Of a DNA stretch of 64,000 nt, positions 1,205 to 34,083 are shown piece by piece (the first letter of the stretch is position 1; each line of letters starts with the position of its first letter). Both the position numbers and the translations under genes were made by a program. The notes beneath the pieces were generated by a model. It saw only the letters and a program-made list of their open reading frames with translations, searched no databases and had not been told where the DNA came from. The stretch lies in contig DXJO01000014.1 in the NCBI GenBank assembly GCA_019057475.1, positions 17,011-81,010 of the forward strand. The letters run 5' to 3'. The stretch comes from Candidatus Thorarchaeota archaeon. GTDB taxonomy: Archaea; Asgardarchaeota; Thorarchaeia; Thorarchaeales; Thorarchaeaceae.

Positions 1205-1219
1205 TGGAGGAGGAATGAC

Positions 1220-2038
1220 ATGGATTTCGGCCTGAAGGACACACATGTTTTGATAACTGGAGCTTCTGGCGGCATCGGTCTTGAATTGGTGCGGGCTTTT
1301 TTGATAGAAGATGCGAAAGTCACTGCCACCTACAATCATTCACGAGATGAGCTTGAGAGGATTCAGGAGAACTGGCAGAAGCAGCTTGCAGTTGTCAAGG
1401 TTGATGTGCGAGAAGAGCTAGAAGTGATATCGCTTTTCGAACAATCTCAGAATACGTTCGGACGAGTCGACATTATGGTGGCGAATGCAGGGATAGCCAA
1501 CCACGTGGCGGCTCCCATCCACGAGATGAGCCTGAAACAGTGGCAGAACACAATGGCGGTCAACCTCACAGGCGTATTTCTTTGTTCGAAATACTTCGTT
1601 GAGAACCTAGCCAATCATCAGGGGGATCACGCGTCACTCATTCTGATTGGCTCAACAGCAGGATTGTTTGGAGAAGCAGGGTTCGCAGATTACGCTACAT
1701 CAAAGGCGGCCCTACATGGACTCATGATGAGCATCAAGAACGAGATAGTGAATGTCGCAAAGAAGGGGAGGGTCAATCTGGTGAATCCCGGTTGGACTCT
1801 GACACCCATGTCTGAAGAGGTTCTCGCTGACAGCGAGAGGGCGACCCGAATCTTGCAGACGATACCATTGCGAAAGACTGCAGTACCTGAGGACATTGCA
1901 GGTGCTATTCTTTATCTTGCTTCGAACAAGCTATCTGGTCACATTAGTGGGCAGACGCTCACCGTTGCGGGAGGAATGGAAGGACGTGTGCTTTACTCGC
2001 ACGAGGATTTAGAATCAGACGTTGATGAGATGACATAG
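1220..2038 (+). CDS. SDR-family oxidoreductase
   Basis: TGASGGIG, NAGI and YATSK motifs. Confidence 0.92.
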   Translation: MDFGLKDTHVLITGASGGIGLELVRAFLIEDAKVTATYNHSRDELERIQENWQKQLAVVKVDVREELEVISLFEQSQNTFGRVDIMVANAGIANHVAAPIHEMSLKQWQNTMAVNLTGVFLCSKYFVENLANHQGDHASLILIGSTAGLFGEAGFADYATSKAALHGLMMSIKNEIVNVAKKGRVNLVNPGWTLTPMSEEVLADSERATRILQTIPLRKTAVPEDIAGAILYLASNKLSGHISGQTLTVAGGMEGRVLYSHEDLESDVDEMT

Positions 2039-3427: not shown

Positions 3428-5119
3428 CTACGCATCAGGACTCGACAGACTTCTAATTCCTGAGATGACAAAGATGCTACCCAGGCTAAGTAAAACAGCT
3501 GGTCCAATGAATGCGCAGAGTATCTGGAAATAATAGGGTTCAATCGCGACCTCCACCACTGCGTCCAAGCCAGTGATCTTCAAGAATATGAAGAGCAGTA
3601 TTGAGCTCATCATGGCGAACATCGGGACCATCATCGCGGTCATCATGTTGGCTTGATGAGCTGGCGACTTTGTGTCTTCGTAGTCCGGATTGCGGGCAGT
3701 GACTCCAATCGCTACCATGGACGAACCGATGACAACTATGAATCCAAATCCCAAAAGCAGCAACGCATCCACCGTACCAAGGCCAAGGACGAAGGTCATT
3801 CCAACAACCACAATCAATGTCAGAAACACATCAGCGAATGCAGCCATCGCAAGTCGGGACTTGATGAACCTTGACGCGCCCTGAGGGGCACTCTGGATGA
3901 TCCATAACTGATCCTTACTCTCAAGAAATCCGGTCCCGACAAACGGAAAGGCGCCCACCATGGCAAACATCATTCCAAACGCGGAGATTATGTCTATCAG
4001 ATTCATCTCGGACCCAAAGTCCGCGAAGAACGTCATCATGATTGGAAGTACAATAGCCAGAATGACTCCATAGAACATCTTAGAGAGGTTCTGTGCCTTT
4101 CTAAAGTAGTCCTTCATGTTGACGACTAGCAGGGCGCCGAATGAATTGCCACTGAGCTTCCTCAAACCTCGAAGAATAAAGTTCTCTCTGCCAACTGTTG
4201 TGATTCGCTCCGTTCGAGCTCCTGCGGTGATTGTGAACACCCTGCCTGTAGCCCCGAGTGTCAGACCTAGAACACTGACACTGAAAGCGCCCACCAACAA
4301 AGCACTGACTAGCAGATCGAGTTGAAGTATAGTGCTGAAGAACGCTACTTCAGGTTCAGTAAGGCTAATTCCGTTGAATGTGATGGCAATCCAGCTTACG
4401 ACATCAGCACTCCATGTGAAAGGCAGAAGAAGAAAGATATCCGTGCCTAGAATCTCAGTCATGATTGGCGCAGCGAACATCAGTCCGTACATTGGTAAAA
4501 TGGCAGCAAATGCAATCACAAATGACAGCGCCTTGGCAATGTCGTTCCCTCTTGAAGAGGCCCCAAGCTTTGACATAACCGCTGCTGTAGCGAAGTTTGA
4601 GATCCATAGAACTGTGAGCACGGTCAATATGAGTACGGTGTATATGAGAGCCACTCCAATGAGTGAAACCTCAAAGGCCAGTATGAATGGGGTAATTATT
4701 AGAGGTGCCAAGAAGAGGGTCACTAGGCCGTAGAGTGGCAATCCACCGAGGAAGCTACCCGTCAGGATATCTCTTGTCTTCACGTTGTTGGAGAGGAATA
4801 TCTCCCAATGTCCAATCTTAATCTCCTCAAGTGCCTTGGTCATAGGGAACAGCAGGAGCATAATCCACAACACCATCATTGCTGAACGCATCAATCCTGG
4901 AAACATGATCATTAGCAGTGCGCGAATATCGCTCATGGGCATGATTGCATTGAGGGCCCCACCAATGAGGAATGGAGCACCGTAGACCGCCCACAGAATT
5001 CCCAGAGCACAGAAAGCCCCGGAGTACAATCGCCTGTGGTTCCTCATGCCTGCCGTGAGGACGTAGAAATCGGCCGTGGCAATATGAAACCATTTTTTCA
5101 CCATAGGATTTACCTCCAA
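3428..5119 (-). CDS. ABC exporter permease (multi-TM)
   Basis: About 12 TM helices, directly downstream of an ABC ATPase. Confidence 0.75.
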   Translation of the reverse strand: MEVNPMVKKWFHIATADFYVLTAGMRNHRRLYSGAFCALGILWAVYGAPFLIGGALNAIMPMSDIRALLMIMFPGLMRSAMMVLWIMLLLFPMTKALEEIKIGHWEIFLSNNVKTRDILTGSFLGGLPLYGLVTLFLAPLIITPFILAFEVSLIGVALIYTVLILTVLTVLWISNFATAAVMSKLGASSRGNDIAKALSFVIAFAAILPMYGLMFAAPIMTEILGTDIFLLLPFTWSADVVSWIAITFNGISLTEPEVAFFSTILQLDLLVSALLVGAFSVSVLGLTLGATGRVFTITAGARTERITTVGRENFILRGLRKLSGNSFGALLVVNMKDYFRKAQNLSKMFYGVILAIVLPIMMTFFADFGSEMNLIDIISAFGMMFAMVGAFPFVGTGFLESKDQLWIIQSAPQGASRFIKSRLAMAAFADVFLTLIVVVGMTFVLGLGTVDALLLLGFGFIVVIGSSMVAIGVTARNPDYEDTKSPAHQANMMTAMMVPMFAMMSSILLFIFLKITGLDAVVEVAIEPYYFQILCAFIGPAVLLSLGSIFVISGIRSLSSPDA

Positions 5120-30532: not shown

Positions 30533-30719
30533 TTAGTCTGCACGCCTCGGACATTAGTAGCGGTGAGCTGAACACCTCGCCGAAGCTTGGTGCTTACACC
30601 CCCGCCCTATTTACCTTGTCTTCTACAAGAGTCCTCGTTCCTAAACTCAACGTTACTGTCACCAGTCCCGCTGCCCCTCGGAGGGGTCGTTTAGTAAATG
30701 GGTGACTATTTTTCGGTCT

Positions 30720-30752
<33 letters not shown>

Positions 30753-30835
30753 ATTACGGCTTAGCTACTCGACATTGCCTTGTCAGACAATCGATACACC
30801 ATAGGCCGCCACGAAGCGTTCCTCTCGTACCGGCT

Positions 30836-30865
30836 TTCCACGCGCTAGAGGAGATCTCTAGCACC
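30836..30865 (-). other. 30-nt insertion in H95, putative BHB micro-intron
   Basis: 9-bp hairpin between GAG and AAA bulges; removing it restores the 8-bp CAUGAAGC/GCUUCGUG stem. Confidence 0.7.
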
Positions 30866-30935
30866 TCATGTTGCCGGCAGTCACCCAACAGCGCCAATAG
30901 ATAGAAACCAACCTGTCTCGCAACGGTCTAAACCC

Positions 30936-31364
30936 CTTTGCTACCGACCTCGTTTCGGTCATTTCCTGCCGAAACTTTAACGGTCCTCTTGGACTTCACC
31001 CGGCTTCCGGATCATGGTTAGGAAGCCAGTTTTCCATTCAAGAACATCCTTTCAGATGGGAATAGACTATGTCTTGAGCGCTGCATTTCTGCAACGCCTG
31101 CTGCCATTTAGTCGTTGAACTGCACCCTTATTCCAAGAAGGAACTTAGGACTTGGCTGCAGGTTGTCCATTGTTACATCCTCCCCATTGTTACCATACCC
31201 GAGGCCACTAACCTGGCCGACATGATGTTTCCATCGTGCCTTGGTAGGGGAGGCTTTAGGAGTTTCCCGCAATTTGACAGCATCGCCAGCAACCACTCTG
31301 ACTAGCCGAACCTTTCGGTCCGACTGAGCCTATAGCCGCGCAACCGCTTATGCGCGACCGGTCA
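30936..31364 (-). ncRNA. Group I intron (IC1-like, no ORF) after 23S U2580
   Basis: The exons rejoin as GAGCU|GGGUUUAG and the intron ends in G; IGS GGCUCA pairs with UGAGCU; P AAAUUGCGGGAA, Q CCUGCAGCCAAG, R GUUCAACGACUAAA, S AAGACAUAGUC; P3 UGCUGUCA/UGGCAGCA. Confidence 0.95.
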
Positions 31365-34083
31365 AGCTCACGTTCGGTTTTAATCGGTGAGCACCCGCAC
31401 CCTTCGGGCCTTATGCAACCCGAGGATACCAAGAGCCGACATCGAGGAAGCAAGCCGCGTGGTCGATATGAACTCTTGCACGCGACAACTCTGTTACCCC
31501 TGGGGTAAGTTTTTTGTCATCTCCACCACTCACAATTGGCCAGTGAAGGTTCGCTAGGCCAGTGTTTCCACCCAGGACCCGTTGCTTTTCGGGGTCCTGT
31601 CAGCCGAACTTATGCCCTTGATCTCAACGAGACGTTTCCATCGCCTCTGAGTTCAGCATTGGTCAGGGCTGATCTCTTGTCAGCCCTGTGCCGCCCCAGC
31701 CCAACTGCCTATCTGCCAGTGTCCCTAGACTCGCTTGGTCTAGGTTAGCCATCCCCAACAACATAGTCAGTATTACACGGTCGCATTCCCACACCCCGGA
31801 GAGTGTGGTTCAACGCTCCTGACTATACTCTGTATGATGCCAGAAATGGCAATGACAGACTGCGTAGTAAACCTCCGCAGGGACTTCTCTTCCCATTGGC
31901 GCTACGTACACTGTTCGGTACGGTGTAGGTTCACCGGAGCCCTCCTGGGGACAGTGGGGACCTCATTGCTCCCTTCATGCACGTCGGCATTTAACCGACA
32001 AGGCATTTGGCTACCTTAAGAGACTCATAGTTAGTCCCGGCGTTAACCTGTGCTTCGACCCGTTCCCGAGCTTTAACATACAGGCACAGACCAGGATTCA
32101 CTGACTGTACTAACGCTTACGCGCTCGCAGTCAGCTATGTTTGTATTAAACAGTTGGGACCCCCTAGTTGCTAAGACCTAGGAAAGCTTGCACTAACCCA
32201 GGCACGGCATATCCCGAAGTTACGCCGCTAATTGGCCGATTTCCCTCAGGCAGGGTTGACTCCGATACACCTTGGCCTTCTCAGCCAGGGAACCTGTGTC
32301 AGATCTGGGTACGGACACGGAAGATCCTTCCAAATTCGTTTTTCAAGGTCACCAGGAATAGGCCAAACGGATGTCCGACCACCCGCTATTCCACCCTTCG
32401 CCTGCTTCTCACAATTACGGTACTCGGCAGGCTTATAGTGTTAAATACAGCGACAGCTGTACTTGGCTTGTCCGAATGAGTTACAAATTTGGCTTTGCGT
32501 TGCCGCGAATCGTACTTCCGTGGTTCAGGAATATTAACCTGATTCCCTTTCGTGACGCTCGAATTACGACGCCACTTAGGATCGACTAAGCTTCGGCTGA
32601 TGACGCATCGCCGAAGAACCCTTTCCCTTTCGGTGACATGGATTCTCACCATGCTTCGCTGTTACTACTACCAGGATCATCAAACCCGACCGGTCCACGG
32701 GACCTCACAGCCCCACTTCTACCCAATCGGGTCGCTCCGCTACCGGATCACACAGAATTACCCGTGTGCCGTATGGTCTCGGTGGCCAGATTTAGCCCCG
32801 TCCATTTTCAAGGCCGAGAGCCTCGGTCTGTGAGCTGTTACGCTTTCGTTCGGGGATAGCTGCCTCTAAGCTCACCCCCAGACTGTCTTGGGCTCTCGAC
32901 TCCCTTCTTCACCGCACTTATCTGGCACTTAGGGACCTTAACCACACTCTCGGTTCTCCCCATCTCGGCCTGCCGGGCTTACCCCGGGCACCCGTCTCCC
33001 GCCGTCTACAGTTCATGCAGCTTCGGAGTTTTCAGGATGGTGAAGGACTTGACGTCCCCCGGGCGCATCCGAAAGTGCTCTACACCACATGATACCTCAA
33101 GCAGGGCTTGGCTACGACCAACTTCGCGGAGAACGAGCAATCACCAGTCTAGATAAGCCTTTTACCCCTTCGCGCAGATCAACGGAACGAGTTGCACGTC
33201 AGAACCCTATCGGGCCTCCACCGAGCTTTCGCCCGGCTTCACCCTGTCCACGCCAAGATCGACTGGTTTCTCGTGTCACGGGAGTGACTTCGCGCGCTTT
33301 CACACGCCGCCCCTCACCCTTGCGGGTTGCGGGCTTATTGGTTTCCCTTCGTTTACGGCTTAATGCCTTATCCTCGCCACGCCCATGAACTCCCTGGTCC
33401 GTGTTTCTAGACGGATGATGCTGAGTCGATCCACTCGAGTCCTACTACAGAATCACTTCTGGTTCGTTCCCCGAGTATCTACTCTTTTACTCAGCATCCT
33501 TTGTGTAGATTGCTGGTTTCAGGTGCTTTTCACCCCGCTCCCGCGGCACTTTTCAACTTTCGCTCGCGCTACATAGTTTACTATCGGTTTGGCTGAGTAT
33601 TTAGGCTTCGCAAATTGTGCTTGCGACGTTCACGCGAGAGTTCCAACCCGCGCTACTCTGGAACCATGAACTTGCCTGCGTGTTACGCCTACGGGGGTGT
33701 CACCCTCTACGCCGCATCGTTCCAGACGACTTCGGCTTTCACGCATAGGCAATAAGTTCTTGGCCCGTACACCACATCCCCCAGTACTCTTCGCACTGAG
33801 ATTCGGTTTGGCCTTTTCCCCTTTCGCTCGCTGTTACTCAGGGAATCACTGTTGTTTTCTTTTCCTGCCCGTACTAAGATGCTTCAGTTCCGAGCGTTCC
33901 CAATCCGGGAATGACCCCGGATCCATGCGGATTATTAGCCCACATGAGGAAGTCCCATTAGGAAATCTGCGGATCAAAGGCTTCGTGCGCCTACCCGCAG
34001 CATATCGCTGCTTGCCACGTCCTTCATCGGCTAGCCAACCAAGTCATCCACCAGCAACCGTTTAGCGAATCGCGGACCTACTT

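What the first reader, a model, noticed from the sequence alone, without database searches (positions are those of the whole stretch)
30936..31364. Eukaryote-nuclear-like IC1 group I ribozyme in the peptidyl-transferase centre of an archaeal 23S rRNA
Seen: a 429-nt insertion between U2580 and G2581, with a U-G pair in P1, a terminal omega-G, P3, P7 and the P/Q/R/S elements. It has a P5abc-type extension (GGCC...GGGUAUGGUAACAA with an A-rich bulge), GCAGCCAAGUCCUAAGU as I recall it from the Tetrahymena intron P4-P6 region, and a long P9 region. It encodes no homing endonuclease. Established: IC1 is the typical subgroup in eukaryotic nuclear rDNA, and group I introns are known in archaea. Inference: an IC1 intron in an Asgard-type genome bears on the origin of nuclear rDNA introns. 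Site 2580 is not among the common insertion sites I recall. Related Asgard introns may already be published.
Basis: partly seen in the sequence, partly recalled or inferred. Interest (0 to 1): 0.82.

Follow-up and report, generated by a model that had tools for sequence, protein, structure and literature searches.

The report
Nuclear-type IC1 intron in Thorarchaeal 23S
The only 23S rRNA gene of this Thorarchaeal (Asgard) genome is split, in the ribosome's catalytic centre, by an intact 429-base self-splicing-type intron of the subgroup (IC1) otherwise typical of eukaryotic nuclear rRNA genes, a subgroup that a 2018 survey did not find in archaea.

Summary
Window 30936-31364 (minus strand) is a 429-nt insertion in an archaeal 23S rRNA gene, exactly between E. 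coli U2580 and G2581. It matches Rfam's group I intron model at 114 bits.

It aligns along the whole P3-P9 core, including P5abc, with introns from eukaryotic nuclear rDNA. Among these are sites L1921 and S1389, which the literature calls IC1. On that alignment 91% of pair cells are paired, against 33-43% in slid controls. A model of P4-P6 built only from eukaryotic nuclear introns scores it at 152 bits, the highest of all prokaryotic and viral loci tested.

It carries no endonuclease gene. The same intron (97.9% identical) sits at the same site in a second species of the genus, labelled Candidatus Thorarchaeota. A third species and about 25 family members lack it.

IC1-like introns also occur in two Heimdall genomes at a different 23S site, in a CPR bacterial rpoC gene and in a giant-virus capsid gene. 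The intron tree is unresolved. So this is most likely a patchy, horizontally acquired, probably self-splicing intron. It does not show that nuclear rDNA introns originated in Asgard archaea.

I found no published report of IC1 introns in archaea or of site L2580. The U-G pair in P1 is plausible but not secured. No RNA data were available.

The parts
31365..34073 (-). 5' exon of the 23S rRNA gene, ending at the equivalent of E. coli U2580
   Evidence: RF02540 match 30535-34073, 2388 bits. E. coli numbering checked. 99.0% identical to the Thorarchaeota CSMAG_1051 gene.
30936..31364 (-). Complete 429-nt ORF-less IC1 group I intron. Intron nt n corresponds to window position 31365-n.
   Evidence: RF00028 at 114 bits. 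Boundaries set by comparison with intronless relatives. 97.9% identical copy in L047.
31353..31359 (-). Internal guide sequence GGUCGCG (intron nt 6-12). It pairs with exon CGUGAGCU to form P1. Nt 2-5 (GACC) can pair with the start of the 3' exon to form P10.
   Evidence: Read from the sequence, with energies. The register of the U-G wobble is not settled. Inferred.
31283..31355 (-). P2/P2.1 region. A 5-bp hairpin (nt 10-27) and a 13-bp hairpin capped by a GAAA tetraloop (nt 35-65).
   Evidence: ViennaRNA folds. The two substitutions U15G and G18A against L047 fall in the first hairpin's loop. No covariation data are available.
31119..31271 (-). P4-P6 scaffold domain (nt 94-246). Contains P4, P5, the P5abc three-way extension, P6, P6a and P6b.
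   Evidence: Covariation in A1. A model built only from eukaryotic introns (R1) scores 151.6 bits, E 3e-28.
31178..31254 (-). P5abc (nt 111-187). P5a carries the A-rich bulge GGUAACAAU, P5b is capped by GAAA, and P5c is CCAGG/CCUCGG.
   Evidence: Helices 4-8: 17 of 23 pairs show changes on both sides.
31099..31115 (-). J6/7, the P7 5' strand and the P3 3' strand (R element GUUCAACGACUAAAUGGCAGCA). G252 of the G-binding pair, bulged C251.
   Evidence: The pair A250-U301 covaries with C-G in other introns (AU 12, CG 6, GC 2, UA 1).
31077..31098 (-). P8 hairpin with a GAAA loop (nt 267-288)
   Evidence: Helix 14: 8 of 9 pairs show changes on both sides.
31064..31076 (-). J8/7 and the P7 3' strand (S element AAGACAUAGUCU). 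C replaces the near-invariant U of AAGAUAUAGUC in both Thor copies.
30937..31058 (-). P9 (GAAA loop, nt 307-320) and a long P9.1/P9.2-type 3' extension (nt 321-421). A possible P9.0 pairs U303, U304 (at 31061-31062, outside this range) with A427, A428.
   Evidence: P9 covaries (helix 15). The extension is predicted by minimum free energy only, and both Thor copies give the same fold.
30936..30936 (-). Terminal omega-G
   Evidence: Read from the sequence.
30535..30935 (-). 3' exon of the 23S rRNA gene, starting at G2581 (GGGUUUAGACC...)

Best explanation
This is a structurally intact group I intron of subgroup IC1 with no homing-endonuclease gene. It interrupts helix 90 of the single 23S rRNA gene of a Thorarchaeal genome between U2580 and G2581.

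Inferred mechanism: the pre-rRNA folds into the P3-P9 core, braced by P5abc. An external guanosine bound at the G252-C300 site in P7 attacks the 5' splice site, which is held in P1 by the guide sequence GGUCGCG. The terminal G429 then takes the guanosine site, the exons are joined, and the normal GAGCU-GGGUUUAG sequence is restored. A working ribosome cannot be made without this step.

Inferred history: the intron was already present in the common ancestor of two species of the genus. It most likely reached that lineage horizontally from the pool of IC1 introns best known from eukaryotic nuclear rDNA. Entry by reverse splicing into a new site, or loss of an endonuclease gene after homing, are both possible.
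For: Shown:
- RF00028 scores 114 bits inside an archaeal LSU gene.
- The intron aligns end to end with introns in eukaryotic nuclear rDNA at 71-74% identity. These include site GACU|CUCUUAAGG (L1921) and site CCCUGCCCUU|UGUACAC (S1389). The literature assigns both families to IC1 (PMC3112068, PMC8395846).
- Covariation supports every core helix, P5a/b/c included.
- Model R1, built only from eukaryotic introns, gives 152 bits. Heimdall introns get 125-129, the giant-virus locus 94-106, the CPR locus 98, and an IB4-type Asgard L1931 intron 23.
- Q ends in GC and R begins with GU. The P7 bulge C goes with an A-U closing pair, a covarying variant also seen in the eukaryotic rows.
- Of 9 substitutions against the sister copy, the 3 that fall in helices keep or create pairs.
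- Exon sequence around the site is identical to that of intronless relatives.
- Only one LSU match was found in the genome.
- There is no ORF or Pfam domain in the intron.
- Exons are 99.0% and the intron 97.9% identical between the two species, which fits vertical descent within the genus.
- The intron is missing from the third species (G006) and from about 25 family members.
Against: - No RNA data exist, so splicing has not been observed.
- The P1 wobble is ambiguous (and the Rfam alignment).
- J8/7 has C where 19 of 21 aligned introns have U.
- In the window copy the tetraloop receptor reads UAAGG instead of UAUGG.
- The donor lineage is not resolved. The tree backbone is open, and a single clade of Thor plus Heimdall introns is not rejected (AU p = 0.18).
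- The subgroup-specific GISSD models were not available.
Confidence: 0.85

Rival explanations
1. The intron is an old Asgard element. IC1 introns were present in the archaeal ancestor of eukaryotes, and nuclear rDNA IC1 introns descend from them vertically.
For: IC1-like introns occur in two Asgard classes: Thor at L2580, and Heimdall at a site near L1776. A single clade of Asgard introns is not rejected (AU p = 0.18). Of the non-eukaryotic introns tested, the Thor intron scores highest on the eukaryote-trained P4-P6 model.
Against: Only G000 and G004 matched among 61 relatives searched with RF00028. A further sample of 150 genomes of the phylum added only the Heimdall genome as another Tetrahymena-type case. 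The intron is absent from a same-genus species and from about 25 family members with the site assembled. The Thor and Heimdall introns occupy different sites and do not group together in the free tree. Related P5abc-bearing introns sit in a CPR bacterial rpoC gene and a giant-virus capsid gene, so the pool is not specific to Asgard and eukaryotes.
Confidence: 0.06
2. The ribozyme is a decaying relic. It is either not removed (retained or fragmenting rRNA, as with the unspliced Simkania L1931 intron cited in PMC11270868), or it depends wholly on host proteins for removal.
For: The intron has no endonuclease gene. P1 is weak and ambiguous. J8/7 has a U-to-C change, and the window copy has a receptor change. 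[quoted passage not shown]
Against: All core helices are intact. Substitutions between the two species preserve pairing. A 429-nt insert inside helix 90 at the peptidyl-transferase centre of the only 23S gene is hard to reconcile with a working ribosome; this point rests on established knowledge of the PTC. The exons are unchanged.
Confidence: 0.07
3. It is an assembly artefact, or contamination in which a eukaryotic intron was stitched into an archaeal rRNA gene.
For: Several 'prokaryotic' MAG contigs found in the same pattern scan are in fact eukaryotic rDNA contamination (L037, L050, L054).
Against: The same intron lies at the same junction in an independently assembled genome whose exons differ by 1%. 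The host gene scores best as archaeal LSU. The contig extends at least 81 kb, and the window carries ordinary prokaryotic genes. Intron GC (51.7%) is close to exon GC (54.0%). No eukaryotic intron is more than 75% identical to it.
Confidence: 0.01
4. The insert is removed by the archaeal splicing endonuclease, as a bulge-helix-bulge intron would be, and not by ribozyme chemistry.
For: Most archaeal rRNA introns are of this kind, and relatives carry such inserts near this site. A 4-bp central helix (GACC with GGUU), flanked by 3-nt bulges at both junctions, can be drawn by hand.
Against: Neither flanking helix of the motif can be formed (own reading of the sequence). The same GACC/GGUU pairing is what a P10 would look like. 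The full ribozyme core is conserved.
Confidence: 0.01

Closest known systems
Nuclear rDNA IC1 group I introns of fungi and protists (the L1921 family, the S1389 family, and the Tetrahymena L1925 intron as type)
   Same: The same core and scaffold: P3-P9, P5abc with an A-rich bulge, a GAAA L5b with a CCUAAG...UA(U/A)GG receptor, Q ending in GC and R beginning with GU, and a bulged P7 nucleotide with a covarying closing pair. Identity is 71-74% over about 220 aligned core columns. A short P1 loop is also seen in the L1921-site intron (PMC3112068, PMC8395846).
   Different: The host is an archaeon and the gene an archaeal 23S rRNA. I found no report of insertion site L2580. The P2 region and the P9 extension have no detectable sequence similarity to those introns; BLAST matches cover only intron nt 85-320.
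Archaeal group I introns described by Nawrocki, Jones and Eddy 2018 (PMC6125680)
   Same: Group I introns in archaeal rRNA genes from metagenome-derived genomes. Many are ORF-less, and they cluster around the peptidyl-transferase region.
   Different: All 39 of those are IB4 or IA3, at LSU 1923, 1931, 2500 and 2593 or at SSU 1498. The IC1 model and RF00028 found nothing in archaea at that time. An Asgard L1931 intron of that kind scores only 23 bits on the IC1 P4-P6 model.
IC1-like introns in two Heimdallarchaeota MAG 23S genes (L034; L055, which is the same contig as L093 and L178)
   Same: Asgard host and archaeal LSU. The same core with P5abc, RF00028 scores of 115-117 bits, and the same AACGACUA...UAGUCU version of P7.
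   Different: The site differs (GACUGUU|UAACAAAAACAUAGC, roughly E. coli 1776). They are AT-rich and about 66% identical in the core. They do not group with the Thor intron in the free tree.
P5abc-bearing group I introns in protein genes of CPR bacteria and giant viruses (L041 rpoC, L059 capsid gene)
   Same: A homologous P4-P6 domain (94-106 bits on R1) and the same R and S elements.
   Different: They interrupt protein-coding genes. One carries a GIY-YIG ORF. J6/7 reads GAAGGUUCA in L041, not GCAGUUCA. They are more distant from the Thor intron than the nuclear rDNA introns are.

Membership tests
Group I intron (Rfam RF00028) | Conserved core P3-P8 with the P3/P7 pseudoknot and the P/Q/R/S elements | tested here: met
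   114.2 bits against a gathering score of 50. 91% of pair cells are paired and 45 of 69 pairs covary. P7, written as a pseudoknot, is 100% paired.
Group I intron (Rfam RF00028) | U-G wobble at the 5' splice site in P1 | tested here: inconclusive
   The guide sequence GGUCGCG pairs with the exon. U-1 with G6 needs a bulged A-4 (-4.1 kcal/mol). The Rfam register puts the wobble on U+1 (-2.2). The minimum-energy fold (-7.2) has no U-G at the site.
Group I intron (Rfam RF00028) | Terminal omega-G, with exact restoration of the host sequence on removal | tested here: met
   The intron ends in ...GCAAAG. Removing 30936-31364 gives GAGCUGGGUUUAG, as in intronless relatives.
Group I intron (Rfam RF00028) | Guanosine-dependent self-splicing | not testable with these tools
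   Needs in vitro transcription and a splicing assay, or RNA reads.
Subgroup IC1 | P5abc extension of P5 with an A-rich bulge in P5a | tested here: met
   P5a, P5b and P5c are supported by covariation (helices 4-8). The bulge GGUAACAAU aligns with GGUAAAAAC of the nuclear introns. R1 scores 151.6 bits.
Subgroup IC1 | Q element ending in GC and R element starting with GU (criterion quoted in PMC3112068) | tested here: met
   Q is AACCUGCAGC and R is GUUCAACGACUAAA.
Subgroup IC1 | G-binding site in P7 with a bulged nucleotide that covaries with the closing pair (PMC8395846) | tested here: met
   Bulge C251 goes with A250-U301. The aligned rows with bulge A have C-G; columns 214/285 read AU 12, CG 6, GC 2, UA 1.
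Subgroup IC1 | Separate P2 and P2.1 hairpins, and P9.1/P9.2 extensions | tested here: inconclusive
   Two 5' hairpins and a branched 3' extension are predicted by energy alone. Only two near-identical sequences exist, so there is no covariation.
Subgroup IC1 | Best score to the IC1 model among subgroup-specific covariance models (GISSD set) | not testable with these tools
   Only RF00028 is available in Rfam. The substitute test was a model built from eukaryotic nuclear IC1 introns.
Archaeal IB4/IA3 group I introns (Nawrocki 2018) | IB4 or IA3 architecture at LSU 1923, 1931, 2500 or 2593 | tested here: not met
   The site is 2580. The scaffold is of the P5abc type. An Asgard L1931 intron scores 23 bits on R1 against 152 for this intron.
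Archaeal bulge-helix-bulge intron | Two 3-nt bulges around a 4-bp helix, with at least one flanking helix at the exon-intron junctions | tested here: not met
   A central helix and bulges can be drawn, but neither flanking helix forms (hand analysis of the sequence).

The most novel reading that the evidence does not exclude
IC1 ribozyme introns belong to an ancient stock shared by Asgard archaea and eukaryotes. On this reading the nuclear rDNA IC1 introns were inherited from the archaeal host at eukaryogenesis, and the Thor and Heimdall introns are surviving archaeal members of that stock.
Probability: 0.06. Interest if true: 0.85.

Novelty: new member of a known kind. Interest (0 to 1): 0.58.

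Why it matters
Group I introns were first shown in archaea in 2018. Only subtypes IB4 and IA3 were found, and the IC1 model found nothing. This intron, together with the Heimdall ones found here, shows that the IC1 subgroup also lives in archaeal rRNA genes. IC1 is the model Tetrahymena type, otherwise typical of eukaryotic nuclear rDNA, and the hosts here belong to the archaeal phylum closest to eukaryotes.

That widens the known host range of IC1. It adds what appears to be a new insertion site inside helix 90 of the peptidyl-transferase centre. It also gives a concrete case for testing gene flow of ribozyme introns between eukaryotes, giant viruses, CPR bacteria and Asgard archaea.

It does not by itself say anything firm about the origin of nuclear introns. 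The compact ORF-less ribozyme, with a GC content near 52%, would also be a convenient new IC1 for biochemical study.

Tried and rejected
1. Subgroup-specific covariance models are not available. I replaced them with alignment to introns at sites that the literature assigns to IC1, and with my own model R1.
2. Phylogeny of 98 and of 48 intron cores. The backbone is unresolved (23 of 45 inner branches open). The Thor pair sits on a long branch, and the AU test does not reject Thor plus Heimdall monophyly (p = 0.18). No donor can be named.
3. Rfam scans of several metagenome loci at once failed with a tool error. I assigned contexts by BLAST to reference rRNAs instead. Many metagenome hits therefore remain of unknown context.
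No variant with an endonuclease gene was found.
5. Literature searches for IC1 in archaea or Asgard, and for site L2580, found nothing. The authoritative site lists (Jackson et al. 2002, and the CRW paper) are not held, so 'new site' remains unproven.
6. A bulge-helix-bulge reading of the junctions was rejected because there are no flanking helices.
7. The insert in G008 near this site turned out to be two other inserts, not a group I intron at 2580.
8. The alternative splice register (5' site after U+1, 3' site after the next G) would give G2581U. I rejected it as less parsimonious because all intronless relatives have G there, but RNA data would be needed to exclude it.

Full report
**Observation**

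Rfam places an archaeal LSU rRNA at window 30535-34073 on the minus strand (2388 bits). Inside it lies a full-length match to the group I intron family RF00028 at 31043-31373 (114.2 bits, E 6e-29). A more permissive scan of the gene finds nothing else.

The sense strand reads ...AACCGAACGUGAGCU|UGACCGGUCGCGC ... GGUAGCAAAG|GGGUUUAGACCGUUGCGAGACAGG. Relatives without the insert read GAGCUGGGUUUAG. Neither boundary can be shifted without changing that sequence, so the insert is exactly 30936-31364, 429 nt.

I checked the numbering on an E. coli rrl locus. Its local numbering is 4 below the canonical one at the GGGAUAACAGG landmark. The U of GAGCU is therefore U2580.

The longest stop-to-stop frame in the intron is 75 aa, and the two longest frames have no Pfam match.

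**Host**

The window is part of a contig that extends at least 81 kb, in a 3.34-Mb genome that is 96% complete. A genome of the same genus (G004) has the same intron at the same junction. Its contig is identical to the public record DAOVDG010000097.1, titled Candidatus Thorarchaeota archaeon CSMAG_1051.

Between the two species the 5' exon is 99.0% identical and the intron 97.9%. These are therefore two independent assemblies of diverged populations, not a chimera. The genes flanking the rRNA are ordinary prokaryotic genes (RNase PH, methyltransferases, an M28 peptidase).

**Structure**

I aligned the Thor core with 19 other introns found by pattern scans. I then wrote the helices from the Thor sequence and counted pairs.
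- 91.1% of cells form standard pairs, against 33-43% when the 3' partners are slid by 1-3 columns.
- 45 of 69 pairs show changes on both sides.
- No shuffle out of 500 reaches the observed values.
- P3, P5, P5a, P5b, P5c, P6a, P8 and P9 all covary. P4, P6 and P7 are nearly invariant.

The scaffold is of the Tetrahymena kind.
- P5a carries the bulge GGUAACAAU.
- P5b is capped by GAAA.
- P5c is CCAGG/CCUCGG.
- J6a/6b holds a CCUAAG...UA(A/U)GG receptor. It is canonical UAUGG in the sister copy and UAAGG in the window copy.

In P7 the guanosine-binding pair G252-C300 is preceded by a bulged C and an A250-U301 pair. Rows with a bulged A have C-G there. PMC8395846 describes this bulge and closing pair as covarying.

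The 3' third folds into P9 (GAAA loop) plus a branched extension. The 5' 80 nt hold two hairpins. These peripheral parts rest on energy alone.

Of the nine substitutions between the two Thor copies, three lie in helices and keep or create a pair (C115U, C129U, U311C). The rest lie in loops or junctions.

**P1**

The guide sequence GGUCGCG (nt 6-12) is complementary to the exon CGUGAGCU. The next four nucleotides upstream (GACC) can pair with the start of the 3' exon, as a P10 would.

The register is not settled.
- A U-1 to G6 wobble needs a bulged A-4 (-4.1 kcal/mol).
- Rfam's alignment puts the wobble on the first intron U and leaves U-1 mismatched (-2.2).
- The minimum-energy hairpin (-7.2) has no U-G at the site.

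The L1921-site eukaryotic intron (L054) can be drawn with a similarly short P1 loop (own reading of the sequence).

**Subgroup**

The best non-Thor matches to the intron lie in eukaryotic nuclear rDNA.
- 75% identity over 242 nt to an intron in a eukaryotic LSU (L110).
- 73.6% over 239 nt to an intron at CCCUGCCCUU|UGUACAC in SSU, which is S1389.
- 70.8% over 264 nt to an intron at GACU|CUCUUAAGG, which is L1921, on a contaminating eukaryotic rDNA contig.

PMC3112068 assigns L1921 introns to IC1 and PMC8395846 assigns S1389 introns to IC1. The criterion quoted in PMC3112068 (Q ends in GC, R starts with GU) is met.

I built a covariance model of P4-P6 from 14 eukaryotic nuclear introns only. 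It scores as follows:

| Locus | Bits |
|---|---|
| Thor introns | 152-153 |
| Heimdall introns | 125-129 |
| Giant-virus locus (L059) | 94-106 |
| CPR bacterial rpoC introns (L041) | 98 |
| Asgard L1931 intron, IB4-like | 23 |

The subgroup-specific GISSD models could not be run.

**Distribution**

- Among 61 relatives, RF00028 finds the intron only in G000 and G004.
- A BLAST with exons plus intron shows the two exons directly adjoining in a third species of the genus (G006) and in about 25 other family members.
- G008 has other inserts nearby but reads GAGCTGGGTTTAG at the site.
- In a 150-genome sample of the phylum, the only other high-scoring hit is a Heimdall genome.
- A pattern scan of one genome per prokaryotic species found two Heimdallarchaeota 23S genes with a related intron at a different site, GACUGUU|UAACAAAAACAUAGC, roughly E. 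coli 1776.
Apart from the same Heimdall contig it gave no archaeal host.

**Origin**

Trees of 98 and 48 cores have an unresolved backbone. The Thor pair sits on a long branch whose nearest rows by path are eukaryotic rDNA introns. The Heimdall pair does not join it, but a single Asgard clade is not rejected (AU p = 0.18).

Related P5abc-bearing introns split a CPR bacterial rpoC gene, where they are accompanied by a GIY-YIG ORF, and a giant-virus capsid gene.

Given the patchy distribution, the best reading is a horizontal gain in the ancestor of two Thor species from a widely shared IC1 pool. The nearest sampled members of that pool are nuclear rDNA introns. The direction and the donor are not shown.

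**Function**

The genome shows one LSU match. The insert lies in helix 90 beside G2582, G2583 and U2585 of the peptidyl-transferase centre; this placement rests on established knowledge. So it must be removed. With an intact core and no bulge-helix-bulge motif, ribozyme splicing is the most likely route, possibly assisted by proteins. No RNA data were available.

**Literature**

Nawrocki et al. 2018 found 39 archaeal group I introns. All were IB4 or IA3, at LSU 1923, 1931, 2500 and 2593 or at SSU 1498. The IC1 and RF00028 models gave no archaeal hits.

Seven full-text searches found no report of IC1 introns in archaea or Asgard, nor of an intron at L2580. The standard site tables are not held in the library.

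Earlier notes of this scan describe IB4-type L1931 introns and enzyme-spliced introns in other Asgard 23S genes. None describes an IC1 intron.

**Verdict**

This is a real and well-preserved IC1 group I intron in a Thorarchaeal 23S rRNA. It is a new host domain for a known subgroup, at an apparently unreported site. It is interesting to people who study ribozymes and Asgard archaea, but it is not evidence for an Asgard origin of nuclear introns.

Noticed in passing
window 30836-30865 (minus strand): The window's 23S gene has a 30-nt insert just upstream of the sarcin-ricin loop sequence. The otherwise 99%-identical gene of Thorarchaeota CSMAG_1051 lacks it. Other first-stage notes read it as a mini bulge-helix-bulge intron.
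   Followed up: partly
window about 31494/31495 (the E. coli A2451 region); loci L018, L020, L022, L024, L025, L026: Six family relatives (G016, G009, G017, G007, G012, G028) carry inserts of about 140 to 790 nt at this one position of the 23S gene. The window does not. This matches an earlier scan note about an endonuclease-bearing intron at A2451.
   Followed up: no
L007:1727-1756 and L007:1787-1999 (G008): A family relative has a 30-nt insert between AACCGAA and CGTGAGCT, and an insert of about 215 nt after GTTGCGAG (near E. coli 2596-2600). It is intronless at 2580.
   Followed up: partly
L034:about 1216-1690 (minus strand); L055:about 3505-3916 (the same contig as L093 and L178): Two Heimdallarchaeota MAGs carry an AT-rich IC1-like group I intron of roughly 410-480 nt (RF00028 115-117 bits). 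It lies in the 23S gene at GACUGUU|UAACAAAAACAUAGC, roughly E. coli 1776. I have not seen this site listed either.
   Followed up: partly
L041:1811-3546 (Candidatus Colwellbacteria contig JAQTUL010000001.1): Two near-identical P5abc-bearing group I introns split the RNA polymerase beta-prime (rpoC) gene of a CPR bacterium. An ORF with a weak GIY-YIG match lies between them, and an intein-like segment lies further along the gene.
   Followed up: partly
L059:10072-11081 (metagenome contig Ga0302286_10000976): Two group I introns (113 and 92 bits) lie beside an exon with a weak match, below Pfam's cut-off, to the giant-virus (NCLDV) major capsid protein. In the FastTree they group near the Heimdall introns.
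   Followed up: partly
L037, L050, L054, and probably L048 and L051: Contigs deposited in bacterial or archaeal genome assemblies (Arsenicibacter, Methanobacterium and Nocardia; probably also Blastomonas and Paenibacillus) are eukaryotic nuclear rDNA or intron-only fragments carrying several group I introns. They are contamination in those assemblies.
   Followed up: partly
L043:4634-7762 and L056:283-2699: Four or five group I introns are packed within about 3 kb, with no rRNA match, on a 53-kb 'bacterium' MAG contig and on a Lachnospiraceae MAG contig. The interrupted genes were not identified.
   Followed up: no
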